A DNA stretch of 64,000 nucleotides from a virus (Duplodnaviria > Caudoviricetes). Below are positions 1 to 10,814 of this stretch, piece after piece. The stretch lies in the IMG/VR virus record IMGVR_UViG_3300030330_006692, positions 1-64,000 of that record; one strand, given 5' to 3'. Each line of letters opens with the position of its first letter. Position 1 is the stretch's first letter. Position numbers and translations under genes: made by a program. The notes under the pieces are model-generated. The model did no database searches and had not been told where the DNA came from. It saw nothing but the letters and a program-made list of their open reading frames with translations.

Positions 1-1
1 A

Positions 2-172
2 GTAGGTGATATTGTTAAACGTTTTCTTACCGATCAGTTCGGCATCGTGCTGGACATCAAGCCGCTTGGTTCTATTCATGTGATGTGGACTACACAGGGC
101 GACTCGTTGTTCGGTCCTGGTAGCAAAGAATGGTGTGATGAAAGAAGTTTGGAACTCCTGACATCCTCTTGA
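2..172 (+). CDS. 5'-truncated small SH3/KOW-like protein (VGDIVKR...GIVLDI...VMW...LELL)
   Basis: Hand translation of frame 2; same VGD(I/L)V...GIV...W...LE pattern as many neighbours; stop TGA 170-172. Confidence 0.7.
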   Translation, partial: VGDIVKRFLTDQFGIVLDIKPLGSIHVMWTTQGDSLFGPGSKEWCDERSLELLTSS

Positions 173-232
173 CAACTAATCACTTGCGAACCTCGCTCAC
201 CTATGCTATATTATATAGGTAATCAAGGAGAA
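158..232 (+). promoter_or_regulatory. Early promoter cassette copy 1
   Basis: CTGACA 158, TTGACA 169, -35 TTGCGA 184, TG-c-TATATT 204-212 (17-bp spacer), AAGGAG RBS. Confidence 0.85.
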
Positions 233-236
233 CTAC

Positions 237-1115
237 ATGTCATACAATGGAACCGTCCGCTGCTCTTACTGCTTCCAAACTGGTCACAACAGGCGCACTT
301 GCCCTGAGCTTAGTGAAGCCACTGCGCGCCTGTGGCGCAACGCCAAGAGCAGCTACGATCGCATGGTTAAGGAAGGTAAGACCGAGATGTCCGACATGTA
401 CAAGTCGCGTATGCAAAGCTATGCCGACCGCTACGCAACGCGCACCGGCAAGGATGTCGCGACTGGCGAAGATATTGTCATGACTAAGGAGACCAAGAAA
501 GCAGCCAAGGCAAAGCGACTGAAGAACATCCGCTGCTCGTACTGTGGCAACACTGGACACACGCGCCGGACCTGTCAGGATCTAAAGGACGACAGGCAAG
601 TTTACCTCAAGGCTGTCCTTGACAAGCGGATTGATGCTCTGAACAAAATGCGTGAGCTTGGTGTCGGTGTCGGCTCGCTCGCCAAGATGCAGCGGTATGG
701 CTACTGGCCAGACAAGGAGAACGGTGGAACCACTTGGGGTTCTCGCCTGCGCCCGATGTTGCTGAGAAACATCAACTGGTCAGCGATTCTCCCGCACAAT
801 GACAGGTTGACCAACCTGTACCACTTTCACGATGCTGCACAGCTTTGCGGCGATGGGGATCACTACTCTTGGACCGACGAGGGCTACAACTTTGCTGCCG
901 ATGCTGTGGAGAACGGCTCTCTTACTCCATCTGGAACCATCAATCCGCCCGATGGCTGGTTTGAGGGCAAAGATGTTGACATGTCATATGTCTTCCCTCC
1001 GGGCAAGCTGCGTGACTGGGCTTTCCGCGATGCTCATCAGAGGATCCTCAATGACGATCCCCCACAGAGCCATAACACCGAGCTTTACAAGGCTCGCAAG
1101 TCGCTGGGGATCTAA
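237..1115 (+). CDS. Protein with two CCHC zinc knuckles
   Basis: CSYCFQTGHNRRTC and CSYCGNTGHTRRTC = CX2CX4HX4C; RBS and promoter upstream. Confidence 0.8.
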   Translation: MSYNGTVRCSYCFQTGHNRRTCPELSEATARLWRNAKSSYDRMVKEGKTEMSDMYKSRMQSYADRYATRTGKDVATGEDIVMTKETKKAAKAKRLKNIRCSYCGNTGHTRRTCQDLKDDRQVYLKAVLDKRIDALNKMRELGVGVGSLAKMQRYGYWPDKENGGTTWGSRLRPMLLRNINWSAILPHNDRLTNLYHFHDAAQLCGDGDHYSWTDEGYNFAADAVENGSLTPSGTINPPDGWFEGKDVDMSYVFPPGKLRDWAFRDAHQRILNDDPPQSHNTELYKARKSLGI

Positions 1116-1197
1116 CAATCCCCTTGACATTCTCTTTACAACTTATCCCTTGCAATCTCTGTTCCCCCATGCTATATTATATAGGTAATCAAGGAGA
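1112..1197 (+). promoter_or_regulatory. Early promoter cassette copy 2
   Basis: CTAACA 1112, TTGACA 1124, TTTACA 1135, -35 TTGCAA 1150, TGcTATATT -10 at 1173, AAGGAG. Confidence 0.85.
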
Positions 1198-1203
1198 GAA
1201 CCA

Positions 1204-1689
1204 ATGAAAGTTCGCAACGCCATCAAGAAAGTCAAATCCCACTTCGCCAAGCAAGGCATCGACATCGATGTGCAGCTTATTGGTCATCGCTGGACATTTG
1301 TTCACAACGGCTATGTCGGCTCGTTCCTCGCCAACGGTGCCTGCACCGATGAGGATCAGATGGACGCCGACGCACACAACTTCCACGTGCGCCGTGAGAA
1401 TGACCATAGCTGTCTGTACTCCGACTATCATGCTGGCTCGTTCCGTGATAACATCACGCAAGTTTGTGAGAGTCTGTTGCCGCCTGCGCCTAAGTTCGCC
1501 GTCGGCTCACTCGTGCGAGGCAAGCAGAACAAGCGCGCAATGCGCCAGGGCTACGCTGGCAAGGTGGGTCTTGTGGTGCCGAATGGTACGGGCAGTAGCC
1601 GCTATGCTAAGGTGGCTTGGGTTGGTGAGGCTCAACCTAAGTGGGGCTGGGCGACTTATCCAGAGCGTGACCTTGAATTGGTTAGTTGA
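1204..1689 (+). CDS. Hypothetical early protein with C-terminal SH3-like module
   Basis: C-term KFAVGSLVRG...VGLVV...VAW...DLELVS; RBS upstream. Confidence 0.75.
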   Translation: MKVRNAIKKVKSHFAKQGIDIDVQLIGHRWTFVHNGYVGSFLANGACTDEDQMDADAHNFHVRRENDHSCLYSDYHAGSFRDNITQVCESLLPPAPKFAVGSLVRGKQNKRAMRQGYAGKVGLVVPNGTGSSRYAKVAWVGEAQPKWGWATYPERDLELVS

Positions 1690-1752
1690 CAAATCGCTTG
1701 ACATTTCCCTGACAACAAAATACTTGCACTAAATGACATCCCATGCTATATT
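1686..1752 (+). promoter_or_regulatory. Early promoter cassette copy 3
   Basis: TTGACA 1686, TTGACA 1698, CTGACA 1709, -35 TTGCAC 1724, TGcTATATT -10 at 1747. Confidence 0.85.
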
Positions 1753-1798
1753 TATAGAGTAAGGCAAAGAACTAACACCCTCAACACTGGAGCCCAAC

Positions 1799-2887
1799 AT
1801 GGCTATCGACTTCGCAACATTCCTCAACGTCGCCCCTCACATCCTCAACAGCAAGCTGCCTGTACTTATCCGTGGTCGCCACGGTGTCGGCAAGTCCGAG
1901 GTGGTCTACCAGATCGCCGCAACTCGCGACCTGCCTGTGGTCGAGCGCCGCGCTTCTCAGATGACCGAGGGTGACCTTCTTGGTTTGCCCGATGTGGCTG
2001 ACACGTCCATCAACGGTCGCAAGGCTACCACTTGGAACGCGCCTGACTGGCTTGTAACCGCTTGTGAACAGCCTGTCCTTCTCTTCCTCGATGAGGTGGA
2101 CCGCGCGACCATGGAGGTCCGTCAGGGTCTCTTCGAGTTGACCGACAGCCGCAAACTGAACGGCTGGCACCTCCACGCCGACACCCTGATCGTCGCTGCC
2201 GTCAACGGCGGTGAGCACGGCGCTCAGTACCAAGTTGGCGAGATGGACCCAGCCGAGCTTGACCGCTGGACCGTCTTCGATGTCGAGCCTTCCACCGAGG
2301 ACTGGCTCAAGTGGGCTAACGATCGCGTGCCGTCGGTCGTTTGGGACTTCATTAATCACAACCGTAAGCACTTGGAGCACGAGGGTGACTTCGAGCCTAA
2401 CAAGGTCTACCCTTCCCGTCGCTCATGGAAGCGATACTGCGACACCGCAGAGCCCGCGGGTGTGTTCGGTGAGGACGGAGACCGCGATCTTCTCTTCAAC
2501 CTTGCGACCGCGTTCCTTGGTTTCGAGGCTGCTGTGTCCCTTCGTGACTTCGTTGAGAAGTACGAGTGGCAAGTGACCATTGAGGATATCCTTGACCTTG
2601 GAGACTTCTCCAAGACCGACAAGTGGGGCATCAACGACCACGCTGCTATGATTGAGAAGTTTGAGGCTTCTGGAGTCTTCAAGGATGATCTCGCTGAGAC
2701 TCAGGTCGGTAACCTTGCCGAATACTTTGTATCTCTGCCATCAGAGATCGCCATGAAGCTGTGGACCGTTCTCGGTGACACCGATAACATCAACAATGTT
2801 GTGGCTCTGCACAAGGCGGAGACCACCGACGGTCGCCGGGTCTCCGATCACCTTGTCGAGATCCTTGGTGGCAACACTGAAGACTAA
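1799..2887 (+). CDS. MoxR-type AAA+ ATPase
   Basis: Walker A GRHGVGKS, Walker B LLFLDEVDR, AAVN sensor, DPAELDRW Arg-finger. Confidence 0.9.
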   Translation: MAIDFATFLNVAPHILNSKLPVLIRGRHGVGKSEVVYQIAATRDLPVVERRASQMTEGDLLGLPDVADTSINGRKATTWNAPDWLVTACEQPVLLFLDEVDRATMEVRQGLFELTDSRKLNGWHLHADTLIVAAVNGGEHGAQYQVGEMDPAELDRWTVFDVEPSTEDWLKWANDRVPSVVWDFINHNRKHLEHEGDFEPNKVYPSRRSWKRYCDTAEPAGVFGEDGDRDLLFNLATAFLGFEAAVSLRDFVEKYEWQVTIEDILDLGDFSKTDKWGINDHAAMIEKFEASGVFKDDLAETQVGNLAEYFVSLPSEIAMKLWTVLGDTDNINNVVALHKAETTDGRRVSDHLVEILGGNTED

Positions 2888-2889
2888 TC

Positions 2890-3129
2890 ATGTTTCATCG
2901 ACTACCGCCGATTGACCGTGACCCGGAGGTGGGTGACCTTTGCAGGCTCAATGGAGCCGAGGGTCAAGCCCATCGCTTCCGCGAAAAGCATGGTGTTGGC
3001 ATGATTGTCAAGAAGCACGTGATTAGTGAGAACTCCAGAGCAGTTCAGTACGAGATTAAATGGCTGAAAAGCGAGGAACACATGAGGTTTTTCAAAGATG
3101 ACATCTTTATCATCTCAGACGTGGACTGA
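2890..3129 (+). CDS. Small SH3-like protein
   Basis: EVGDLCRL...GVGMIVKK...YEIKW. Confidence 0.65.
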   Translation: MFHRLPPIDRDPEVGDLCRLNGAEGQAHRFREKHGVGMIVKKHVISENSRAVQYEIKWLKSEEHMRFFKDDIFIISDVD

Positions 3130-3322
3130 TAGGCTAGAAATCGGTGACTTGGTGTTCGCTGTCAGAGATGGCAAGCCCGGTATAGTGCTTGACAAAGAAG
3201 AGATGGCACAAGCCAAATACGGCGACATAGCGAACAAGCGATGGAGGTTCAGGCTTCACATCGACGGAGAGCAAGGGTGGTTAGACGAGGTCCGCATGAG
3301 GACCGGATACAGGATCCCTTGA
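3098..3322 (+). CDS. Small SH3-like protein
   Basis: LEIGDLVFAVRDGKPGIVLDK; start uncertain. Confidence 0.6.
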   Translation: MTSLSSQTWTDRLEIGDLVFAVRDGKPGIVLDKEEMAQAKYGDIANKRWRFRLHIDGEQGWLDEVRMRTGYRIP

Positions 3323-3388
3323 CATTTCCTTGACAACTAAAACCTTGACTTTGCCCCTCCACGATGCTATATTATATATGTAAGGAGA
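3319..3388 (+). promoter_or_regulatory. Early promoter cassette copy 4
   Basis: TTGACA 3319, TTGACA 3330, -35 TTGACT 3345, TGcTATATT -10 at 3368, AAGGAG. Confidence 0.85.
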
Positions 3389-3394
3389 AAGAAC

Positions 3395-4633
3395 ATGTCC
3401 GACGACAAGACCACCAAGCCCTTCAATCTCAACATGCACACTGCTCGCCTGCTCATGCGCGAGCCGTTCTTCGCTGCTCTGTCTCGTCGTATTGACAAGA
3501 TTGAGTCAACTGCGATTCCTACCGCTGGTGTCCGCGTCAACCCTGACTCCGCTCAGTTTGAACTGATGTACAACCCTGAGTTCTTCGCTGCGCTCTCCGA
3601 CGAGCACAAGCAGGGTATCCTCATGCACGAGTTCTACCACCTTGTATTCGAGCACGTGACCAGCCGCAAGCCTGCCGATGGTCTTAAGCGCATCGACAAC
3701 ATTGCGATGGACCTCGCTATCAACTGCCACATTTCCAAGATGCTGCCAAGCGAGTCCAACCCTGGTCCAGAGATCAGCGGTGAGCCCATGCAAGCATGTA
3801 TCCCAGGTGAGGGCATGTTCAAGGATCTTCCTCCTTACAAGACCTACGAGTGGTATCTTGAAGAGCTTAAAAAGATGCAGCAAGAGCAGCAACAAGACGG
3901 CGACGGCGAGGGTGGTCAAGGCAATGGTGACCCTTTTGGTAACATGGACTCCCTTGACTCTCACGATGAGTTTGGCGATGTGGATGGCACGACCCAAGAG
4001 ATTGCCAGTGAGCGCATGAAGGAAGCTATCAAGAAAGCAGCAGAGGAAGCTGAGAAGTCCCGCAACTGGGGCTCCGTGTCCTCCACCATGCGCCAAGACA
4101 TCATGGAGCGCATTGCGACTAAGGTTGACTGGCGCAAGGTTCTTCGATACTTTGTCAAGACTTCACAGCGCGCCGACAAGCGTTCGACGCCTCGTCGTCT
4201 CAATAAGCGGTTCCCAAAGGTCCACCCTGGCAAGCGCGTCCGTCGCCAAGCTAAGATCGCCGTGTCCATCGACCAGTCTGGCTCTGTGGACGATGCGATG
4301 CTCGCCGCGTTCTTCTCCGAGTTGAACAAGCTGGCAGAGATCGCAGAGTTCACCGTCATCCCCTTCGACACCGCGGTAGCCGAGAGCAAGATCTATACAT
4401 GGAAGAAGGGTCAGAACAAGAAGACTGAGCGTGTTCTCACTGGTGGTACATGCTTCAACGCTCCTACCAAGTACGTCAACGAGAAGGGTTTCGATGGTCA
4501 CATCATCCTGACAGACCTGATGGCTCCTAAGCCAATCCCGTCCAAGTGCCAGCGCATGTGGATGACCACTAAGAACTACGCAGCGCGCCCGTACTTCACA
4601 ACTAACGAGCGGATCATTGCCATCGACGGTTGA
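3395..4633 (+). CDS. Metallopeptidase-like + VWA domain protein (DUF2201-type), partner of the MoxR ATPase
   Basis: HEFYH zincin motif, Q/G/D-rich linker, VSIDQSGS MIDAS, GGT, ILTD. Confidence 0.85.
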   Translation: MSDDKTTKPFNLNMHTARLLMREPFFAALSRRIDKIESTAIPTAGVRVNPDSAQFELMYNPEFFAALSDEHKQGILMHEFYHLVFEHVTSRKPADGLKRIDNIAMDLAINCHISKMLPSESNPGPEISGEPMQACIPGEGMFKDLPPYKTYEWYLEELKKMQQEQQQDGDGEGGQGNGDPFGNMDSLDSHDEFGDVDGTTQEIASERMKEAIKKAAEEAEKSRNWGSVSSTMRQDIMERIATKVDWRKVLRYFVKTSQRADKRSTPRRLNKRFPKVHPGKRVRRQAKIAVSIDQSGSVDDAMLAAFFSELNKLAEIAEFTVIPFDTAVAESKIYTWKKGQNKKTERVLTGGTCFNAPTKYVNEKGFDGHIILTDLMAPKPIPSKCQRMWMTTKNYAARPYFTTNERIIAIDG

Positions 4634-4700
4634 CATTTTACTGACACTTTTAGCCTTGATTGTTGAGTCGATCAGTGCTATATTTAATAGACAAAGGAGA
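4630..4700 (+). promoter_or_regulatory. Early promoter cassette copy 5
   Basis: TTGACA 4630, CTGACA 4641, -35 TTGATT 4656, TGcTATATT -10 at 4679, AAGGAG. Confidence 0.85.
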
Positions 4701-4706
4701 GAGATC

Positions 4707-5039
4707 ATGCCCGCAGACTTCACACCCCGCACTAATGACGATGTTATCGCCAAATGGATGGATGGCGTAAGTGCCCGTAATCACAGCAGAACTTTGAAGA
4801 GTGTGGCTTGGGATGATGGCTATGCTGACCTGTACAGCTATGAGCTAAAGATCGGTTCTCGGACTCCAACGGGTTCACTGATCGTTGCGGACTACACAGC
4901 GCCAGCCGGAGGGTTCCAGTCAATGACCACTTCTCAGCACGTCAATCTTGCCAAGGTTCACGCTTGTCGCGAGGGCGCACTCGTAATGCATCCTCTGGTC
5001 TGGGAGGCTTCCGCTCTGAGTGATGAGGTTCCATTCTAG
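4707..5039 (+). CDS. Hypothetical early protein (start corrected to MPADF)
   Basis: ATG 4707 follows the RBS; the upstream in-frame extension runs through the promoter. Confidence 0.75.
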   Translation: MPADFTPRTNDDVIAKWMDGVSARNHSRTLKSVAWDDGYADLYSYELKIGSRTPTGSLIVADYTAPAGGFQSMTTSQHVNLAKVHACREGALVMHPLVWEASALSDEVPF

Positions 5040-5242
5040 TGAGTAGGTTTAAGCCGGGTGATCTTGTGAAGGTCAAAGATGGAACGCACCAAGATGGCAT
5101 GCCTGCTCACCGGGTCGGCATGGTCATCGAGGAAGGCGAGACTTCAAAGTCATACTCTAAAGCGTACACGATCATATTTCTCGGCACTGACCTGCACTTA
5201 AAGTTTCATGAGACATTCTTAGAACCCTTTACAACCCATTGA
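5039..5242 (+). CDS. Small SH3/KOW-like protein
   Basis: FKPGDLVKVK...VGMVIEE...YTIIF...LEP. Confidence 0.75.
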   Translation: MSRFKPGDLVKVKDGTHQDGMPAHRVGMVIEEGETSKSYSKAYTIIFLGTDLHLKFHETFLEPFTTH

Positions 5243-5299
5243 CATCTTAAACCTTGACGATCGCTCTCAGGCGGTTATATTATATGTGTAGAAAGGAGA
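5228..5299 (+). promoter_or_regulatory. Early promoter cassette copy 6
   Basis: TTTACA 5228, TTGACA 5239, -35 TTGACG 5254, TATATT 5276 (16-bp spacer), AAGGAG. Confidence 0.8.
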
Positions 5300-5305
5300 A
5301 AACAC

Positions 5306-5500
5306 ATGCTTGCTATTCCACTCATCCGCACCGACACCGGCGATAGCCTGACACCCATCGAGCGCACCACACTTGCCTGCGAGCAGGTTGTTACTGCTCT
5401 GATGATGCAGGCTACCCTTGACGATCCGCAGATCACTGAACAGGAGCGCGAGACATACACAACCTTGTCCGTCGCTACCATCATTCCAGCAGAGGCATAG
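5306..5500 (+). CDS. Hypothetical early protein
   Basis: ORF directly after promoter and RBS. Confidence 0.7.
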   Translation: MLAIPLIRTDTGDSLTPIERTTLACEQVVTALMMQATLDDPQITEQERETYTTLSVATIIPAEA

Positions 5501-5671
5501 ATGACTGCTTTTGAGATCAAACTCTACAACGAAAAGACGCGCCGGTATCACTTTCTAGCGATGGTCGATGCCGAGAGTAAGGATGAGGCTCTTCAAAAGT
5601 TTATCAATCGCAACAAATATAAGGCGAAGCCCGGTTTTCACCTCTTTGTCAAGACTCCAGGGTGTCTATAA
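5501..5671 (+). CDS. Small hypothetical protein (56 aa, not in ORF track)
   Basis: Hand translation MTAFEIKLYNEK...KTPGCL; abuts upstream stop, TAATG coupling to next gene. Confidence 0.65.
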   Translation: MTAFEIKLYNEKTRRYHFLAMVDAESKDEALQKFINRNKYKAKPGFHLFVKTPGCL

Positions 5672-6006
5672 TGGAACTACCTATCAAAGTAACATGGCCG
5701 CCAATGCTTTACACTGACCGATCCGGTCAAAAGTGGGCTGTTTCTGGTCAGTTCTGGCTCCCAGTGGGCGAGACCGCTACGCTTGACTCCATTGACGATG
5801 TGATGGTTTATGAGCCTCGTAAAGCCTCTCCAGAGCCTTCTAACGTACAGTCTTGGAAGGTCCAAGGCAGTACTGGCAAAAGCTATACAGTGAGCTACGA
5901 TGGGCATGTATGGCGATGTACGTGTGCTGGCTTCGGGTGGCGTCGTAAGTGTCGCCATATCACGGAGAAGATGCACCAGAGCGCTGACAAGTCCTTGACA
6001 ACTTAA
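5671..6006 (+). CDS. SWIM zinc-finger protein
   Basis: VQGSTGKSYTV...WRCTCAGFGWRRKCRH (CxC...CxH). Confidence 0.8.
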   Translation: MELPIKVTWPPMLYTDRSGQKWAVSGQFWLPVGETATLDSIDDVMVYEPRKASPEPSNVQSWKVQGSTGKSYTVSYDGHVWRCTCAGFGWRRKCRHITEKMHQSADKSLTT

Positions 6007-6056
6007 ACCTTGACTTCTACCCGTATCGGTGCTATATTATAAGGGTAGAAAGGAGA
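5984..6056 (+). promoter_or_regulatory. Early promoter cassette copy 7
   Basis: CTGACA 5984, TTGACA 5995, -35 TTGACT 6010, TGcTATATT -10 at 6033, AAGGAG. Confidence 0.85.
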
Positions 6057-6060
6057 AACG

Positions 6061-6165
6061 ATGCAACTTAATCGTGTACTTACCGCAGCCATCGCCGCCG
6101 ATGCCATTTGTATGGGCGCTCTGGTATTTTTCGCAATCCACTGGTTTCAGTGTCCGACAGCATAG
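6061..6165 (+). CDS. 34-aa hydrophobic peptide
   Basis: MQLNRVLTAAIAADAICMGALVFFAIHWFQCPTA directly after RBS. Confidence 0.65.
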   Translation: MQLNRVLTAAIAADAICMGALVFFAIHWFQCPTA

Positions 6166-6174
6166 GAGATAAAA

Positions 6175-6567
6175 ATGTCTGATATTCTAAACATCCGAGT
6201 AACCGAGCGCGAGCTTGACCTTATTATGGACCTACTTCACGAGGCTGGTCTTCGCACTGATGCGGACGGACAGCCCGCAATCGAGATTTGCCACGATCTG
6301 ATGGAGCAAGCCGGTCGCGAGGTCGATGAGTGGGAGTCTACCGATCTTGACGGTCGCACTTTCACTGTCGCAGAGGATCACTTCATCGATCTCGGCATGC
6401 GAGCCCGTGAGATGCGCAAGGCTGAGAAGATGGCGCGCGGTGTGTCAATGGCTGCCGATCGGCGCGCTCATCGCTTCGGTGAGTTTAGCGTCGATGATCC
6501 TAATGATCGCTCTGACCAGCAGCGCGTTGACGTATGGGAACGCCCCAACGACCCAACGAAGTGGTAA
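6175..6567 (+). CDS. Hypothetical early protein
   Basis: AGGAG RBS, intact ORF. Confidence 0.75.
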   Translation: MSDILNIRVTERELDLIMDLLHEAGLRTDADGQPAIEICHDLMEQAGREVDEWESTDLDGRTFTVAEDHFIDLGMRAREMRKAEKMARGVSMAADRRAHRFGEFSVDDPNDRSDQQRVDVWERPNDPTKW

Positions 6568-6571
6568 GTAT

Positions 6572-6682
6572 ATGTGGTTATTGACTTTTTTGCTTGCTGC
6601 CGTTATCGAGGGTGTCCGAGATAACATCATTCTTGCCATTGAACATATCAAGGCTGACGTTGACAACTACTTGACAACTTAA
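6572..6682 (+). CDS. 36-aa hydrophobic-N-terminus peptide
   Basis: MWLLTFLLAAVIEG...NYLTT fills the gap, stop inside cassette copy 8. Confidence 0.45.
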   Translation: MWLLTFLLAAVIEGVRDNIILAIEHIKADVDNYLTT

Positions 6683-6736
6683 ACCTTGCAAACCCCCTCA
6701 CCCTATGTTATATTATAAGTATAGAAAGAAAGGAGA
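6660..6736 (+). promoter_or_regulatory. Early promoter cassette copy 8
   Basis: TTGACA 6660, TTGACA 6671, -35 TTGCAA 6686, TGtTATATT -10 at 6709, AAGGAG. Confidence 0.85.
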
Positions 6737-6743
6737 ACATTCT

Positions 6744-7085
6744 ATGCCGTCAACTCTTGTAAAATCTTATGTTACTCGTCTTCGCAATGCTGCCACTCGC
6801 CTCGATGCACAGCAGGTGATGCAGATTTGGCACGAAGCAGGACTCAACGAAACTCTTGGCGTCTCGGGCGTAGTCCAGATTCATCAGGCTAAGGGTGTTT
6901 CTGATATGATCTTTCATGCTAATCAAGCATGCCAAAAAATCAAGCTACAGCATTTGAACCCAAGCACTGAACTGCCGGAGTTGTCTGAACTTAAAAAGGA
7001 CGAACTCATCCGTCTTTGTAAGTTGCGTTCGGTTGGAGGATATTCTAAGCTGAACCGTGGACAGCTAATCGAGTTGTTGTCATAG
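6744..7085 (+). CDS. Protein with C-terminal Rho-N/SAP-like helical module (start corrected)
   Basis: LSELKKDELIRLCKLRSVGGYSKLNRGQLIELLS resembles Rho N-terminal domain. Confidence 0.7.
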   Translation: MPSTLVKSYVTRLRNAATRLDAQQVMQIWHEAGLNETLGVSGVVQIHQAKGVSDMIFHANQACQKIKLQHLNPSTELPELSELKKDELIRLCKLRSVGGYSKLNRGQLIELLS

Positions 7086-7087
7086 CC

Positions 7088-7160
7088 CTGACATCTTCTT
7101 GACAACTTAATCCTTGCGATCCGCTGCCCCCTATGTTATATTATAAGTATAGAAAGGAGA
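7088..7160 (+). promoter_or_regulatory. Early promoter cassette copy 9
   Basis: CTGACA 7088, TTGACA 7099, -35 TTGCGA 7114, TGtTATATT -10 at 7137, AAGGAG. Confidence 0.85.
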
Positions 7161-7167
7161 TAGTTCT

Positions 7168-7341
7168 ATGATTGAAGTCGGAAGCGTAGTTAAGAGCAAG
7201 TATCTGGTCAGTGGTCACGTTGCCCGCATTGGTCTAGTGACGAAGACTGTTGGAAAGCTCGCAGAGGTATTCTGGCCACATAGCCGGTCAAAGGGCTGGG
7301 TCAAGTGCGAGGACATGGAGGTGATCAATGCAAGTCGGTGA
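7168..7341 (+). CDS. SH3-like micro-protein 1 of tandem array (57 aa)
   Basis: MIEVGSVVKSK...IGLVTK...EVFW...DMEVINASR; not in ORF track. Confidence 0.8.
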   Translation: MIEVGSVVKSKYLVSGHVARIGLVTKTVGKLAEVFWPHSRSKGWVKCEDMEVINASR

Positions 7342-7486
7342 TTTGGTTGTGCAGGTAGGCTGGGAAGCTGACGGGGCAGGTATTGTCCTCAGCACCCGCG
7401 CCCAACGCTATGCTACTGTTTTGTGGCCCGGTGGAGAAGTGGAAATGCTACTCAGCGATCTGGAGGTGATCAATGCAAGTCGGTGA
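7328..7486 (+). CDS. SH3-like micro-protein 2 (52 aa)
   Basis: MQVGDLVVQV...AGIVLS...TVLW...DLEVINASR; GGAGG RBS. Confidence 0.8.
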   Translation: MQVGDLVVQVGWEADGAGIVLSTRAQRYATVLWPGGEVEMLLSDLEVINASR

Positions 7487-7628
7487 TCTGGTAAGCAGCA
7501 ACGGGCATTTGGCAATCGTGATATGCGTCAATGCCTATGAGACATTGATTAAGTGGTTCGATGATGGCATCGTTGAGGATGCCGACAACTATGGGACATC
7601 GCTGGAGGTGGTTAGTGCAAGTCGGTAG
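7473..7628 (+). CDS. SH3-like micro-protein 3 (51 aa)
   Basis: MQVGDLVSS...LAIVIC...LIKW...SLEVVSASR; GGAGG RBS. Confidence 0.8.
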   Translation: MQVGDLVSSNGHLAIVICVNAYETLIKWFDDGIVEDADNYGTSLEVVSASR

Positions 7629-7788
7629 TTTGGTCCGTGAGACTATGGATGGTAACATCGGGATCATCGTGGCGTGGGAAAATGACGGTTGGCTTGTCAA
7701 CTTCCCAAAACACGGCATGGTCTTCCATATGTTGCCGAGACTACTGGAGGTAGTTGACAACTCTCTTGACATTCTCTTGACAACTTAG
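7615..7788 (+). CDS. SH3-like micro-protein 4 (57 aa, GTG start)
   Basis: MQVGSLVRE...IGIIVAW...WLVNF...LLEVVD; GGAGG RBS. Confidence 0.8.
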   Translation: MQVGSLVRETMDGNIGIIVAWENDGWLVNFPKHGMVFHMLPRLLEVVDNSLDILLTT

Positions 7789-7841
7789 TTGTTGACTTTC
7801 GCCTCTCCCGGTGTTATATTATAAGTATAGAAAGAAAGGAG
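7754..7841 (+). promoter_or_regulatory. Early promoter cassette copy 10
   Basis: TTGACA 7754, 7766, 7777; -35 TTGACT 7792; TGtTATATT -10 at 7815; AAGGAG. Confidence 0.85.
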
Positions 7842-7849
7842 TTTATTCT

Positions 7850-8185
7850 ATGCAACGCGCTATCGACCAAATCAAGATCCAAACCACTCGTCAATACAAG
7901 CCAGCGCCAGCGCCTCCAACTCGGAAGCAACTGCAAGGCTGGACTGTCGAGCAGGTTGGCCCGCAGATGTGGGTTGTCTTCCGTCACTCCTCCACACAAG
8001 GCAAGCAAGCTGTGATGGACTTCCCCGATCCTTCATGGGCTGAGTCATTCGCTGCTGGCTGCAACGCCGAGTACTCAAACCCTACCAAGATGAGCGCCAA
8101 GAGCCTGAAGCGCAAAGATGCTAAGTACCTGACCGATGCCGAGAAGGCTGACCTCGCTGCGCTTGAAGCCGGCGAGGGCATTTAG
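7850..8185 (+). CDS. Hypothetical early protein (start corrected to MQRAI)
   Basis: ATG after RBS of cassette 10. Confidence 0.75.
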   Translation: MQRAIDQIKIQTTRQYKPAPAPPTRKQLQGWTVEQVGPQMWVVFRHSSTQGKQAVMDFPDPSWAESFAAGCNAEYSNPTKMSAKSLKRKDAKYLTDAEKADLAALEAGEGI

Positions 8186-8189
8186 AAAT

Positions 8190-8432
8190 ACACCTACTTA
8201 ACCCGTGAACGCGCAGAGCGCGAGAGGTAGAAGATAATGAAAACCCCCAACTACATAGCGCCGGTAACTGTGGCGGGCTTGGTTTAGTCACAGAGGGACA
8301 TGTTCAACCCTAACCAAGAGAACGATAAAATGCGATAGCGATACCTCCAATGCTCAGAGAGGTTAAAAGAGCAGATTAACAAAATGAGACAACTCGAAAG
8401 GGGCGCGAGTATAAACAAAGATCCCCTTTTTT
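8190..8432 (+). ncRNA. Candidate structured non-coding RNA or leader
   Basis: ORF-free gap with several hairpins (CGCGC/GCGCG, CGCC/GGCG, CTTGGTT/AACCAAG, TGCTC/GAGCA, GAGGTA/TACCTC) ending in AAAGGGG/CCCCTTT+T-tract. Confidence 0.35.
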
Positions 8433-8458
8433 CAATCAATCGTTTCGAGGATTACAAT

Positions 8459-8860
8459 ATGACACGTACAGCTTTTCCATCGCCTGCTAACATCCGGCGT
8501 CAAACTCCTGATGAACTATTTGGCAGGGATGCAAAACATTTGTTTAACAACCTGACTAAAGAGTTCGAGAAGAAGGCGAGCAAAGGATCAACAAATCAAA
8601 GTATCTTGATCCGTCGTCGTGGTAGCTGGGGCAGAACCGCAGCAGCTTGGATCGAGTGGCACCAACGAAGTCAAGAACAAAGACAATACTCGATTGATTA
8701 TTGCAATCAAAAGCTATCAACAACCGGCTGGCGCGTCAATGATCTTACCTTTAGAAAGGTTCCCGAATATGTTGACTCGTGGTATAAAAACAATAACGAC
8801 ATGTGGGCGATCATTGTTGAAATGGAATACACGTGTGACGATGCGTGTGCAGCTAAATGA
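8459..8860 (+). CDS. Hypothetical protein (start corrected to MTRTA)
   Basis: GAGG RBS before ATG 8459. Confidence 0.65.
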   Translation: MTRTAFPSPANIRRQTPDELFGRDAKHLFNNLTKEFEKKASKGSTNQSILIRRRGSWGRTAAAWIEWHQRSQEQRQYSIDYCNQKLSTTGWRVNDLTFRKVPEYVDSWYKNNNDMWAIIVEMEYTCDDACAAK

Positions 8861-9174
8861 AATACTACATCTCCCAAACTATTGTTGAACTCGTTGACGG
8901 TCGCCTGACTGGTAGAGAAGTAGTGTTGACACGTGCCGATGCTAAGGTAGACAAAGATGGCGCGAGACTACAAAATGTTAAAATGTTCATGCACAAGTTA
9001 AAGGCGCTGGGTATCCCTAACCTTCACATAAACAAATATGAGAAGAAGCGTTATAATAAACTTGTCCGAGAACAGAACAAGATTAGAAAAGATAAAAAGC
9101 TAACTGTTGCCGATCTTGCGAAGATGGAACAGCAAGCTACAGAGTTACAATCCAATCATCAGGGAGGTGAATAA
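8857..9174 (+). CDS. Hypothetical basic protein
   Basis: Overlapping-start coupling, intact ORF. Confidence 0.7.
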   Translation: MKYYISQTIVELVDGRLTGREVVLTRADAKVDKDGARLQNVKMFMHKLKALGIPNLHINKYEKKRYNKLVREQNKIRKDKKLTVADLAKMEQQATELQSNHQGGE

Positions 9175-9326
9175 TGGAGTTTGTAAGTGCCATGTTTGTA
9201 ATGGTGGGTGCGGCGGGTATTCCGTTTTTGATTAACCGAGCAATCGGAGAGTTAAAAGGTATTCGTAATGTTTTGGAACAGGTTGCAACCGATCCCAAAG
9301 ACATGAATGTAATGGAGACTAAGTAA
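9174..9326 (+). CDS. 50-aa membrane peptide
   Basis: GGAGG RBS, TAATG coupling; MEFVSAMFVMVGAAGIPFLI... Confidence 0.6.
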   Translation: MEFVSAMFVMVGAAGIPFLINRAIGELKGIRNVLEQVATDPKDMNVMETK

Positions 9327-9332
9327 ACAATA

Positions 9333-9524
9333 ATGTCCGATAGTGTTAGATCGTTTAGAGTCGGAGAGTTAGTAAAAAGAAAACATACTTCAGTATCTTC
9401 TAAGGGCTTTTGTGTAGTCGTCGAGAATGACGGAGATAACTACGTTTTATATAATAACTCACTTAAATGTTTACAGAAGATTATGTGTACAGTAGTAGAG
9501 AACATGTATATAAAGCACACATAA
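9333..9524 (+). CDS. Small SH3-like protein
   Basis: FRVGELVKRK...GFCVVVEND. Confidence 0.65.
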   Translation: MSDSVRSFRVGELVKRKHTSVSSKGFCVVVENDGDNYVLYNNSLKCLQKIMCTVVENMYIKHT

Positions 9525-9741
9525 GTTTGTTTATGTGCATTAAACTGTATATGTTTTCTATTTGTGGCTTTACGTGATTGTCTGACAGTCGTTAAACTGT
9601 TAAGTAGTATACTATTGTTTTATAATATGTTTGCAAATGTGTTTAGTTTGTGCTTGGAGTTTAGTACATATACGTTCTATCGCCAACTGTCAAGGTATTT
9701 ATCGTGTCAAGTCATATTCTGTCCGCATTTGTGCGCGTTCC

Positions 9742-9819
9742 TTGACATAGATTTGACATTTGACTGCTTGACATTCAAGGCGCGAGGGTGTATAATATAG
9801 GTATAGTAAGCAAAGGAGT
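9742..9819 (+). promoter_or_regulatory. Early promoter cassette copy 11 (perfect sigma70 consensus)
   Basis: TTGACA 9742, TTGACA 9753, -35 TTGACA 9768, -10 TATAAT 9791, AAGGAG. Confidence 0.85.
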
Positions 9820-9824
9820 GTACT

Positions 9825-9911
9825 ATGACATGGGAAACAGAACAAAAGGTTTACGATTGCTTGGGTGCTGTCATGTGGACGGCTATGCTTTACCTGCTTA
9901 TGGCATACTAA
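9825..9911 (+). CDS. 28-aa hydrophobic peptide
   Basis: MTWETEQKVYDCLGAVMWTAMLYLLMAY after strong promoter and RBS. Confidence 0.55.
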   Translation: MTWETEQKVYDCLGAVMWTAMLYLLMAY

Positions 9912-10220
9912 CACTATATGCGAGACACTACCCGTAGTGTGTCAGTGCATGATTGTTTAGCGAATCCCTAGGGGAGTATAACATACACACACTACATGTA
10001 GGGATTGCATGCGCGAGAATACATAAACGAATACAGTTTAATAATACAATAACTGTTTAGGCTGGAGGGAAATGAAGCCGAGACTAAAACAAATAATAAA
10101 AAGAGTAGGAGAAACCTGCACAATCGTCGTGTGCTATGCACCAATAGTATTATACGTATACAGTTATGTAATAGTAGATTGTATATGTAATAAGACTGCA
10201 AACAAATGTGATAAATGATA

Positions 10221-10420
10221 TTGACATACATTTAACATTCGTTGATTGTTCAGTTTCAAACTGCACTATGGGGTACCCCCCTCCCCCCTACCCCGGATAG
10301 TATGTCACGGTAATCTGACATGTCCCTGACATGCGGGTATAGCCTGTTTTCGATCGCGCCTAAAAATTTTGAGATTATCAGTTCTTTAAAAAACCGCCCC
10401 AAAAAATTTCCCCAAAGTAT
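10221..10420. other. Non-coding junction (possible genome terminus, pac site or origin)
   Basis: CAGTTT-C-AAACTG 10251-10263, palindrome GGGGTACCCC 10270-10279, C-tracts, TGACA pairs 11 bp apart (10221/10232; 10315/10326), A/T tracts; boundary of composition and promoter type. Confidence 0.45.
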
Positions 10421-10445
10421 ATACCTTGTGGGATACCAAGAACGG

Positions 10446-10691
10446 GTGAAAGACTTTTTCAAGAAAGCACCCAAGCACAAGTTTGAGGTGGGAGACTTAG
10501 TTACATGTTCATGTCACGGGGGAGTGGCAGTCATTGTACAACTATATGATGAAGAGACAGATACAGCACCGTCAATGAATATGTGTCAAATATATTGGAT
10601 AAAATACCCACATGACGGTGTACTTGAAAGATTGTGGATGCATACCATAGAAAGATTACGTTTAGTTACAGATTATAAGGAGATAAAATGA
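10446..10691 (+). CDS. SH3-like protein (probable GTG start)
   Basis: KFEVGDLVTC...VAVIVQ...CQIYW...LRLV. Confidence 0.65.
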   Translation: MKDFFKKAPKHKFEVGDLVTCSCHGGVAVIVQLYDEETDTAPSMNMCQIYWIKYPHDGVLERLWMHTIERLRLVTDYKEIK

Positions 10692-10798
10692 AAATCAGTA
10701 AATACAAATACACATGTTGGCATTGCGGTACCGGAATGGTAATGAGATTGCCGGCAGTATGCCCAGAGTGCGAGAGATTGCTAACAAAAGAAACTTGA
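10688..10798 (+). CDS. 36-aa zinc-ribbon micro-protein
   Basis: AAGGAG RBS; MKISKYKYTCWHCG...VCPECERLLTKET (CxxC...CxxC). Confidence 0.7.
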   Translation: MKISKYKYTCWHCGTGMVMRLPAVCPECERLLTKET

Positions 10799-10814
10799 CA
10801 TGCATATATAATAT

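What the first reader, a model, noticed from the sequence alone, without database searches (positions are those of the whole stretch)
158..9819. Eleven-copy early regulatory cassette: helically phased TGACA boxes in front of sigma70 promoters
Seen: every early promoter has the same geometry. Optional box A lies 12 bp before box B, box B 11 bp before box C, and box C 15 bp before the -35 (TTG...). A 17-bp spacer (16 in one copy) leads to a TATATT -10, usually with extended TG (TATAAT in copy 11), then an AGGAG-type RBS. Box C starts are 169, 1135, 1709, 3330, 4641, 5239, 5995, 6671, 7099, 7777 and 9753. Intervening bases vary but spacing does not. The boxes have no -10 at 17 bp, so they are not tandem promoters. 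The sigma70 promoters right of 10.4 kb (23017, 28881, 32142, 33673, 35654, 36651) lack them. Known: 11-bp-spaced direct repeats typify OmpR/PhoB winged-helix dimers, and TGACA is the reverse complement of the pho-box core TGTCA. Inference: a dedicated immediate-early regulon read by a host response regulator, a phage factor, or multiple sigma4-like contacts at about -50/-61/-73.
Basis: partly seen in the sequence, partly recalled or inferred. Interest (0 to 1): 0.85.

Follow-up and report, generated by a model that had tools for sequence, protein, structure and literature searches.

The report
Twin TGACA boxes on phage promoters
Eleven host-type promoters at the start of this uncultured marine phage each carry two strictly spaced TGACA boxes just upstream, a design kept by a whole phage clade and repeated in promoter-less arrays nearby, so an unidentified DNA-binding protein probably controls the phage's first genes.

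Summary
All 11 cassettes exist at the stated coordinates, with box B at -61, box C at -50, a -35 TTGnnn, a 17-bp spacer (16 once) and a TATATT -10. Box A occurs in only 2 copies.

TGACA pairs at 11-bp spacing occur 10 times, all in the first 10.4 kb. Shuffles give 0.005.

The window is the first 64 kb of a 96.5-kb contig from an abundant uncultured marine myophage of about 195 kb. Its first 8 kb is GC-rich (50-57% against 37%).

In more than 200 promoters of relatives the boxes are as conserved as the -35 and -10. They sit at a fixed distance from the -35, not from the -10. They are confined to one 7-18 kb island on one strand.

Sister clades carry A-tract UP elements, or GTGACA pairs at 10 bp, in the same place. 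The boxes are constrained differently from the -35. They also form promoter-less arrays beside a conserved C-rich landmark, only in box clades.

Best reading (about 0.45): a dedicated head-to-tail TGACA-binding protein boosts RNA polymerase recruitment. Whether it is host or phage encoded is unresolved.

The scan found this cassette before in at least six related genomes. I found no published description.

The parts
158..236 (+). Cassette 1: box B CTGACA 158-163, box C TTGACA 169-174, -35 TTGCGA 184-189, -10 TATATT 207-212, RBS, ATG at 237
1124..1203 (+). Cassette 2: box B TTGACA 1124-1129, box C TTTACA 1135-1140, -35 TTGCAA 1150-1155, -10 1173-1178, ATG at 1204
1686..1798 (+). Cassette 3, with box A: A 1686-1691, B 1698-1703, C CTGACA 1709-1714, -35 TTGCAC 1724-1729, -10 1747-1752, long leader, ATG at 1799 (MoxR-type ATPase)
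3319..3394 (+). Cassette 4: B 3319-3324, C 3330-3335, -35 TTGACT 3345-3350, -10 3368-3373, ATG at 3395 (metallopeptidase-vWA protein)
4630..4706 (+). Cassette 5: B 4630-4635, C CTGACA 4641-4646, -35 TTGATT 4656-4661, -10 4679-4684, ATG at 4707
5228..5305 (+). Cassette 6: B TTTACA 5228-5233, C 5239-5244, -35 TTGACG 5254-5259, 16-bp spacer, -10 5276-5281, ATG at 5306
5984..6060 (+). Cassette 7: B CTGACA 5984-5989, C 5995-6000, -35 TTGACT 6010-6015, -10 6033-6038, ATG at 6061
6660..6743 (+). Cassette 8: B 6660-6665, C 6671-6676, -35 TTGCAA 6686-6691, -10 6709-6714, ATG at 6744
7088..7167 (+). Cassette 9: B CTGACA 7088-7093, C 7099-7104, -35 TTGCGA 7114-7119, -10 7137-7142, ATG at 7168
7754..7849 (+). 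Cassette 10, with box A: A 7754-7759, B 7766-7771, C 7777-7782, -35 TTGACT 7792-7797, -10 7815-7820, ATG at 7850
9742..9824 (+). Cassette 11, in the low-GC part: B 9742-9747, C 9753-9758, -35 TTGACA 9768-9773, -10 TATAAT 9791-9796, ATG at 9825
10221..10331 (+). Promoter-less box cluster around a conserved C-rich landmark: TTGACA 10221, TTAACA 10232, TTGATT 10242; GGGGTA-C-rich-TACCCC element 10270-10294; inverted TGTCA 10303-10307; CTGACA pair 10315-10320 and 10326-10331, 11 bp apart with no -35/-10 after it
8857..9174 (+). 105-aa protein with a conserved basic helix, the last well-conserved gene before the landmark. Candidate reader only: found in box-clade genomes and not detected in genomes that lack the TGACA pairs
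   Evidence: no fold match

Best explanation
The two boxes form one upstream promoter element. They are two TGACA sites one helical turn apart, centred at about -58 and -47. I propose they are read by a dedicated sequence-specific DNA-binding protein that binds head-to-tail as a dimer.

This protein sits where sister phages carry A-tract UP elements for the RNA polymerase alpha subunit. It most likely helps recruit host sigma70 polymerase to the promoters of the GC-rich early island, as a class I type activator would.

The same protein would also occupy the arrays of the same box beside the conserved C-rich landmark that ends the island.

Shown here: the element, its geometry, its selection, its restriction to one island and one clade, and its occurrence without promoters.

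Inferred: that a protein other than polymerase reads it, and that the effect is positive. I put phage-specified at about 55% and a host OmpR/PhoB-type response regulator at about 45%.
For: 1. Among 45 distinct orthologous ATPase promoters, the boxes are about 90% conserved, like the -35 and -10, while spacers and flanks are 30-60% conserved. The same holds in 209 promoters chosen by core features only.

2. Box starts lie 15 and 26 bp before the -35 whether the -35/-10 spacer is 16, 17 or 18 bp. Adjacent boxes are 11 bp apart in 161 cases, 12 bp in 8 and 10 bp in 2.

3. The boxes are constrained differently from the -35. The last A is present in 0.78-0.87 of boxes, against 0.31 at -30. One sister clade has GTGACA-N4-GTGACA while its -35 stays TTGACy.

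4. Distant relatives have A-tracts at the same place. Each locus has one type or the other, never both.

5. In four complete genomes the composite occurs 7-14 times, on one strand, within 7-18 kb, with no control matches. An A-tract genome has none.

6. Promoter-less arrays of 2-6 boxes, plus inverted copies, flank a conserved C-rich landmark in box clades only.

7. Other sigma70-like promoters on the same contig lack the boxes.
Against: No reader has been identified. The phage genomes hold no OmpR/PhoB-type domain, and island proteins show no recognised DNA-binding fold.

The core promoters are near consensus with an extended -10, so they may need no activator.

Early promoters must fire before phage proteins are made, so a phage reader would have to be injected or act later.

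There are no expression data. Relatedness of the genomes inflates all clade-level associations.
Confidence: 0.45

Rival explanations
1. The same dedicated reader exists, but it acts negatively. The boxes would be operators through which a phage protein made early shuts off or times the very strong early promoters. It could do this by blocking upstream polymerase contacts or by holding polymerase at the promoter, as phi29 p4 and p6 do.
For: The core promoters are already near consensus. A reader made after infection fits this role. Iteron-like arrays beside a landmark resemble sites of phage regulators or initiators. Two small proteins are found in box-clade genomes and were not detected in genomes that lack the TGACA pairs. 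All clades encode a small sigma region 4 protein next to a ribbon-helix-helix-like protein.
Against: The boxes do not overlap the -35 or -10. They replace A-tract UP elements, which are positive elements. The sigma region 4 and ribbon-helix-helix-like genes also occur in clades without boxes. No box pair lies near their own operon.
Confidence: 0.2
2. RNA polymerase itself reads the boxes. They would be extra docking sites for sigma region 4, either of the same or of a second holoenzyme. Alternatively they would be a GC-tolerant substitute for the UP element, with the alpha C-terminal domains bound to the T-rich and TTAA spacers at about -54 and -41.
For: The boxes match the -35 consensus and each, like the -35, is preceded by C. 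They occupy the UP-element region, where relatives have A-tracts. The spacers are A/T-rich at the usual alpha subsites. One alphaproteobacterial tRNA promoter has four tandem TTGACA repeats at 11-bp spacing.
Against: The constraint pattern differs from that of the -35. The GTGACA clade keeps a TTGACy -35. Arrays occur without promoters and in inverted orientation. Promoters outside the island on the same contig use A/T-rich upstream DNA. Alpha is known to read A/T minor grooves (established knowledge).
Confidence: 0.12
3. The boxes have no binding role. They would be carried along in a mobile stop-plus-promoter cassette that spreads by duplication and recombination, and kept because their TGA triplets close the upstream reading frames.
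For: Eight of the ten island cassettes supply the stop codon of the upstream ORF. Half of the homology breakpoints between relatives fall in cassettes, which cover 12.5% of the region. Cassettes 8-10 are nearly identical.
Against: The most conserved box base is the T before TGA (0.92). G is replaced more often by T, which destroys the stop, than by A, which keeps it (0.15-0.18 against 0.08). Orthologous promoters keep the boxes while the flanks diverge. The arrays at the landmark lie in non-coding DNA.
Confidence: 0.08

Closest known systems
PeSL cassettes (promoter-early stem-loop) of T4-type phages (PMC2839356, PMC4122927)
   Same: Both are repeated sigma70-type early promoter cassettes that head small variable genes in a plastic region of a large myophage and mark where gene modules differ between relatives.
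   Different: No stem-loop or terminator accompanies the cassettes here. PeSLs are not described with paired upstream boxes in the passages read. Here the upstream gene often ends inside the cassette.
UP elements of strong bacterial and T4 early promoters (A-tracts at -40 to -60, read by the alpha C-terminal domains)
   Same: Same position, the same association with near-consensus strong promoters, and distant relatives of this phage carry A-tracts at exactly this place.
   Different: The sequence is TGACA direct repeats, not A/T tracts. It also occurs in arrays without promoters, and is probably read in the major groove by another protein.
Direct-repeat sites of OmpR/PhoB-family response regulators: pho box TGTCA at 11-bp period, CenR TGA-N8-TGA (PMC9275681, PMC11328730), ArcA (PMC3798270), RpaB HLR1 (PMC6525291)
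   Same: Direct repeats at a 10-11 bp period. CenR sites of activated genes lie upstream of the -35. RpaB sites centred near -51 activate. TGA-N8-TGA and the GTGACT half-site resemble the boxes.
   Different: No exact motif match. The orientation is opposite to a pho box. HLR1 has TTACA and a 10-bp period. The host is unknown. In 401 alphaproteobacterial genomes, one of them unpublished (G054), no genome showed a dispersed set of perfect box pairs.
Iterons and operators of phage or plasmid initiators and of ribbon-helix-helix regulators (for example the 11-bp repeats of R1 parC bound by ParR; from my own knowledge)
   Same: Arrays of short direct repeats at an 11-bp period near a conserved non-coding landmark, with the same repeats placed next to promoters.
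   Different: No replication or partition function is shown here and no cognate protein is identified.

Membership tests
PeSL (promoter-early stem-loop) cassettes | Repeated sigma70-type early promoter in a variable region of a T4-type phage | tested here: met
   11 copies in the window; 7-14 in complete relatives
PeSL (promoter-early stem-loop) cassettes | Stem-loop (terminator) joined to the promoter | tested here: not met
   The terminator scan finds no stem-loop upstream of or next to any cassette (the one hit within a cassette, 5259-5276, lies between the -35 and -10 of copy 6); upstream ORFs run into the boxes
PeSL (promoter-early stem-loop) cassettes | Located at the boundaries of gene modules that differ between relatives | tested here: met
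   50% of informative homology ends lie in cassettes, against 12.5% expected. This is partly expected for any intergenic DNA.
UP element | A/T-rich tracts at -38 to -59 | tested here: not met
   The boxes are TGACA. Only short A/T spacers remain at -55 to -53 and -42 to -39.
UP element | Read by the alpha C-terminal domains of RNA polymerase | not testable with these tools
   Needs footprinting or in vitro transcription
OmpR/PhoB-type response-regulator site | Direct repeats at a 10-11 bp period | tested here: met
   11 bp in 161 of 173 adjacent pairs; 10 bp in the GTGACA clade
OmpR/PhoB-type response-regulator site | A cognate winged-helix regulator is present and binds the site | not testable with these tools
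   No Trans_reg_C domain in five phage genomes; the host is unknown
OmpR/PhoB-type response-regulator site | The same motif forms a regulon in the host genome | tested here: inconclusive
   The strict composite gave 5 matches in 185,579 species genomes; of the two looked at further, one (WOR-3 MAG) lies on misbinned phage DNA and the one in the Alphaproteobacteria MAG's own class scan led nowhere; the other three were not examined. No regulon was seen in 401 alphaproteobacterial genomes. Other phyla were not scanned.
Tandem or overlapping sigma70 promoters | A -10 element 16-18 bp after each -35-like box | tested here: not met
   In the 209-promoter consensus of relatives, positions 17 bp after boxes B and C are C-rich and not -10-like; the window scan pairs no box with a -10

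The most novel reading that the evidence does not exclude
The TGACA boxes are iterons of a clade-specific, phage-specified DNA-binding protein. This protein would link the whole early promoter set to a conserved origin-like landmark: box arrays beside a C-rich hairpin whose opposite strand could form a G-quadruplex. One factor would then couple early transcription to replication or to the early-to-middle switch. That would be a regulatory circuit not described for T4-related phages.
Probability: 0.2. Interest if true: 0.75.

Novelty: new variant of a known kind. Interest (0 to 1): 0.6.

Why it matters
These phages are very abundant in ocean metagenomes: more than 4000 protein clusters are related to the island ATPase. 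They are uncultured, and nothing is known of their gene control.

A rigid promoter add-on shared across a clade gives three practical handles:
- It marks the earliest genes.
- It explains why assemblies break in this region. Many contigs of relatives end in the island, which is consistent with the repeated cassettes breaking assemblies.
- It gives a defined DNA bait to find either a host regulator, and thereby the host, or a new phage transcription factor.

Replacement of A-tract UP elements by a sequence-specific box pair in a GC-enriched early region is also a clear natural case of promoter-architecture turnover.

Tried and rejected
- **Near-identity search** against cultured phages: no match. 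The nearest cultured relatives by protein are only 25-31% identical, for example Microcystis phage Mel-JY01 and the Vibrio phage group around Va1.
- **Cyanophage test:** no psbA in five complete relatives.
- **Host from misbinned contigs:** the strict composite found 5 genome records. One, a WOR-3 'chromosome', had 8 box pairs, but it is made of short contigs joined by 100-N gaps and holds phage island pieces. It gives no host evidence.
- **Alphaproteobacteria scan:** 401 genomes, including one unpublished genome (G054) on which no specific claim rests. There were about twice as many box pairs as in the control, and no genome showed a dispersed set. Seven hits in one genome (G305) were copies of one long repeat.
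- **RNA evidence:** no RNA holder was listed.
- **Literature:** four searches found no description of paired upstream TTGACA boxes.
- **Phage OmpR/PhoB domain:** none found.
- **Small sigma region 4 protein:** real (E = 1.7e-8), but also present in clades without boxes, so it is not a clade-specific reader.
- **105-aa box-clade protein:** good model (pLDDT 82) but no informative fold match. The best hits were Z = 4.1, and phi29 p6 appeared only at E = 1.9-3.4.
- **Ribbon-helix-helix-like protein:** model pLDDT 77, with only a weak RelB hit at E = 7.
- **Proteins with a shared N-terminal leader (possibly injected):** no DNA-binding family found.
- **Rfam** on bases 8100-10800: nothing.
- **GC3 against box use:** only a weak correlation, and confounded by relatedness.
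Full report
**Observation.** Reading bases 1-10500 and anchoring each copy on its -10 shows 11 cassettes at the stated places.
- Box B is a (T/C)TGACA hexamer at -61 to -56, and box C is at -50 to -45.
- The -35 reads TTGnnn, followed by a 17-bp spacer (16 in copy 6) and a TATATT -10 (TATAAT in copy 11).
- A conserved leader and an AGGAG-type ribosome binding site follow.
- Box A, 12 bp before B, exists only in copies 3 and 10. Two boxes read TTTACA.
- TGACA as a word is barely enriched in the window (173 against 148.6 expected), but its arrangement is far from chance.
- Same-strand pairs at 11 bp occur 10 times and at 12 bp twice. All lie in the first 10.4 kb of the 96.5-kb contig, with none at neighbouring spacings. 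Shuffles give 0.005.
- Strong sigma70-like promoters further along the contig lack boxes and have A/T-rich upstream DNA instead.

**Context.** The window is the first 64 kb of a 96,555-bp IMG/VR record estimated to be 49% complete.
- The first 8.2 kb has 49-57% GC against about 37% for the rest. Copy 11 lies in the low-GC part, so the junction is not an assembly chimera.
- PHROG and Pfam hits show a myophage with a baseplate wedge protein, PhoH and sugar transferases. Most structural proteins have no family.
- The island core is a protein with two CCHC zinc knuckles, a MoxR-type AAA ATPase and a metallopeptidase-vWA protein.
- No cultured phage is close, and complete relatives lack psbA.
- The ATPase has more than 4000 related protein clusters, mostly from marine metagenomes.

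**Relatives.** The ATPase brought in 80 loci from 92 related viral contigs.
- A composite pattern (box, 9 nt, TTG, spacer, -10) hits 327 times on the gene strand and once on the other.
- For 209 distinct promoters chosen only by core features, the position matrix shows T at -60 and at -49 in over 90%. The consensus is C-TTGACA-ttt-n-C-TTGACA-A-c-ttaa-n-cc-TTGAC. Position -73 carries almost no information.
- At the orthologous ATPase promoter (45 distinct sequences), boxes B and C are about as conserved as the -35 and -10, while spacers and flanks have diverged.
- Box starts lie 15 and 26 bp before the -35 whether the -35/-10 spacer is 16, 17 or 18 bp. The boxes are therefore placed relative to the -35, not to the start site. 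Of 234 promoters, 161 have exactly two boxes and 6 have three.
- In four complete genomes of 187-196 kb the composite occurs 7-14 times, always on one strand and within 7-18 kb, with no control matches. Plain TGACA-N6-TGACA pairs are likewise confined to the island and the stretch just after it.

**Turnover between clades.**
- More distant relatives carry clean A-tracts directly before the -35 of the homologous promoters. These are textbook UP elements.
- One clade has GTGACA-N4-GTGACA at a 10-bp period while its -35 stays TTGACT or TTGACC.
- Another clade has GTGACA-tttg-GTGAC abutting the -35, and another has a different upstream word.
- Within a locus the choice is all or none, for example 28 A-tract and 0 box promoters, or 15 box and 0 A-tract.

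**Who reads the boxes.** Three observations argue against sigma region 4 or plain polymerase contacts.
- The sixth box base is A in 78-87% of boxes, whereas the equivalent -35 position is unconstrained (31% A). The first base tolerates C or G.
- The GTGACA clade keeps an ordinary -35.
- The boxes also occur without promoters. The non-coding stretch that ends the island contains a conserved element, GGGGTA, a C-rich run, then TACCCC, at window 10270-10294.
  - In box clades this element is preceded by 2-6 direct boxes at 11-bp spacing and then by 2-3 inverted copies. In the window and in L048 it is followed by a further pair (window 10315-10331).
  - Three genomes that lack the TGACA pairs (two of the A-tract type, one with a different upstream word) keep the C-rich element, but coding sequence runs up to within some 20-60 bases of it and there are no arrays.

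Box promoters and box arrays therefore appear together, as expected for one trans-acting sequence-specific protein. The direct repeats one helical turn apart suggest a head-to-tail dimer. The position, where relatives have UP elements, suggests a positive class I type role. Both points are inference.

**Candidates.**
- The phage genomes contain no OmpR/PhoB-type domain.
- The eight genomes where it could be found (seven of the nine searched by family, plus one by sequence) encode an 82-105 residue protein with four cysteines and a clear sigma70 region 4 helix-turn-helix. It is always preceded by a 108-115 residue protein whose N-terminus looks like a ribbon-helix-helix.
  - In that N-terminus, alternate strand residues vary between clades while the core residues are invariant.
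  - The pair lies about 18 kb before the island and is not on this contig.
  - It also occurs in clades without boxes, and no box pair lies near it. Its structural model gives only a weak RelB hit.
- Two small island proteins are found in box genomes and were not detected in the three genomes that lack the TGACA pairs. They are 8857-9174, the last well-conserved gene before the landmark, with a conserved basic helix, and 5671-6006, which ends in a cysteine- and histidine-rich tail that looks to me like a SWIM-type zinc finger, though Pfam gave no such match.
  - The first folds confidently (pLDDT 82) but matches no known fold.
- These are leads, not findings.

**Host readers.**
- The pho box core is the reverse complement of the box.
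- The CenR sites of alphaproteobacteria are TGA-N8-TGA, with a GTGACT half-site in S. meliloti, and lie upstream of the -35 at activated genes (PMC9275681, PMC11328730).
- RpaB sites centred near -51 activate (PMC6525291).
- None of these is an exact match, and the host is unknown.
- The strict composite is practically absent from 185,579 species genomes. It gave 5 matches; the one examined in detail (WOR-3 MAG) lies on misbinned phage DNA and the others sit on MAG contigs that were not checked.
- Among 401 alphaproteobacterial genomes, one of them unpublished (G054), none shows a dispersed set of perfect pairs.

**Cassette as a module.** Eight of the ten island cassettes supply the stop codon of the upstream gene. 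Homology breakpoints between relatives fall in cassettes four times more often than expected. This resembles PeSLs of T4-type phages (PMC2839356, PMC4122927), but no stem-loop accompanies the promoters. Stop-codon use cannot explain the boxes. The best conserved base is the T before TGA, and G is replaced more often by T, which removes the stop, than by A.

**Verdict.** The element is a real, selected promoter add-on specific to a clade, with an unidentified reader. The same design was reported by this scan in at least six related genomes, and I found no published description. New in this report:
- the different constraint on the boxes and the -35;
- placement of the boxes relative to the -35;
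- the promoter-less arrays at a conserved landmark restricted to box clades;
- the all-or-none alternation with A-tracts;
- two candidate proteins seen only in box-clade genomes.

Noticed in passing
window 1-8200 against 8200-64000: There is a sharp composition step: the early island has 49-57% GC and the rest of the phage about 37%. Relatives with box promoters also have GC-rich islands (0.45-0.55), and A-tract relatives tend to be lower. The cause is unknown.
   Followed up: partly
window 9930-10420, core 10270-10294: A conserved non-coding landmark, GGGGTA, a C-rich run, then TACCCC, forms a 6-bp stem with a C-rich loop. The opposite strand has several G-runs. The element is kept even in clades without boxes and is followed by a conserved 'ccggaatgtatgtctc' stretch. 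It could be an origin or a processing or termination signal. There is no Rfam match.
   Followed up: partly
L115:3094-3680 (-) and the equivalent in L116-L121; not on this contig: Every relative examined has an overlapping gene pair: a 108-115 aa ribbon-helix-helix-like protein followed by an 82-105 aa protein with four cysteines and a sigma70 region 4 helix-turn-helix. The pair sits beside a GuaC/IMPDH-like gene. It may be a phage transcription factor pair for a later gene class.
   Followed up: partly
window 237-1115: The first island gene encodes a 292-aa protein with two retrovirus-like CCHC zinc knuckles (Pfam zf-C2H2_10, E = 1e-9). Together with the MoxR-type ATPase (1799-2887) and the metallopeptidase-vWA protein (3395-4633), it is conserved in all clades.
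   Followed up: partly
window 5671-6006: This 111-aa protein ends in a cysteine- and histidine-rich motif (my reading: SWIM-type zinc finger; no Pfam support). It is present in box-clade genomes and was not detected in three genomes that lack the TGACA pairs.
   Followed up: partly
window 7168-7788: Four tandem, overlapping micro-genes of about 50 codons share a repeated junction. These are SH3-like small proteins, and another first-stage finding already noted them.
   Followed up: no
L124, L127-L137 (GenBank CP070664.1, 'WOR-3 bacterium bin77 chromosome'): This record, labelled a chromosome, is made of contigs of 3-6 kb joined by 100-N gaps. It contains several pieces of this phage family's early island. 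Contigs in Neomarinimicrobiota and Alphaproteobacteria MAGs also match the strict pattern and may be similar contamination (not checked).
   Followed up: yes
L138:1459-1497, tRNA at 1601-1684: A high-GC alphaproteobacterium has four tandem TTGACA repeats at an 11-bp period (unit TTGACAGGCGn) just before a tRNA gene. The same two-copy unit sits before an ATP synthase operon and a ccrM-like gene in other genomes. This may be a cellular counterpart of stacked -35-like boxes.
   Followed up: partly
contig table: Many related contigs begin or end within a few kb of the island ATPase, which is consistent with the repeated cassettes breaking metagenome assemblies at this region.
   Followed up: no
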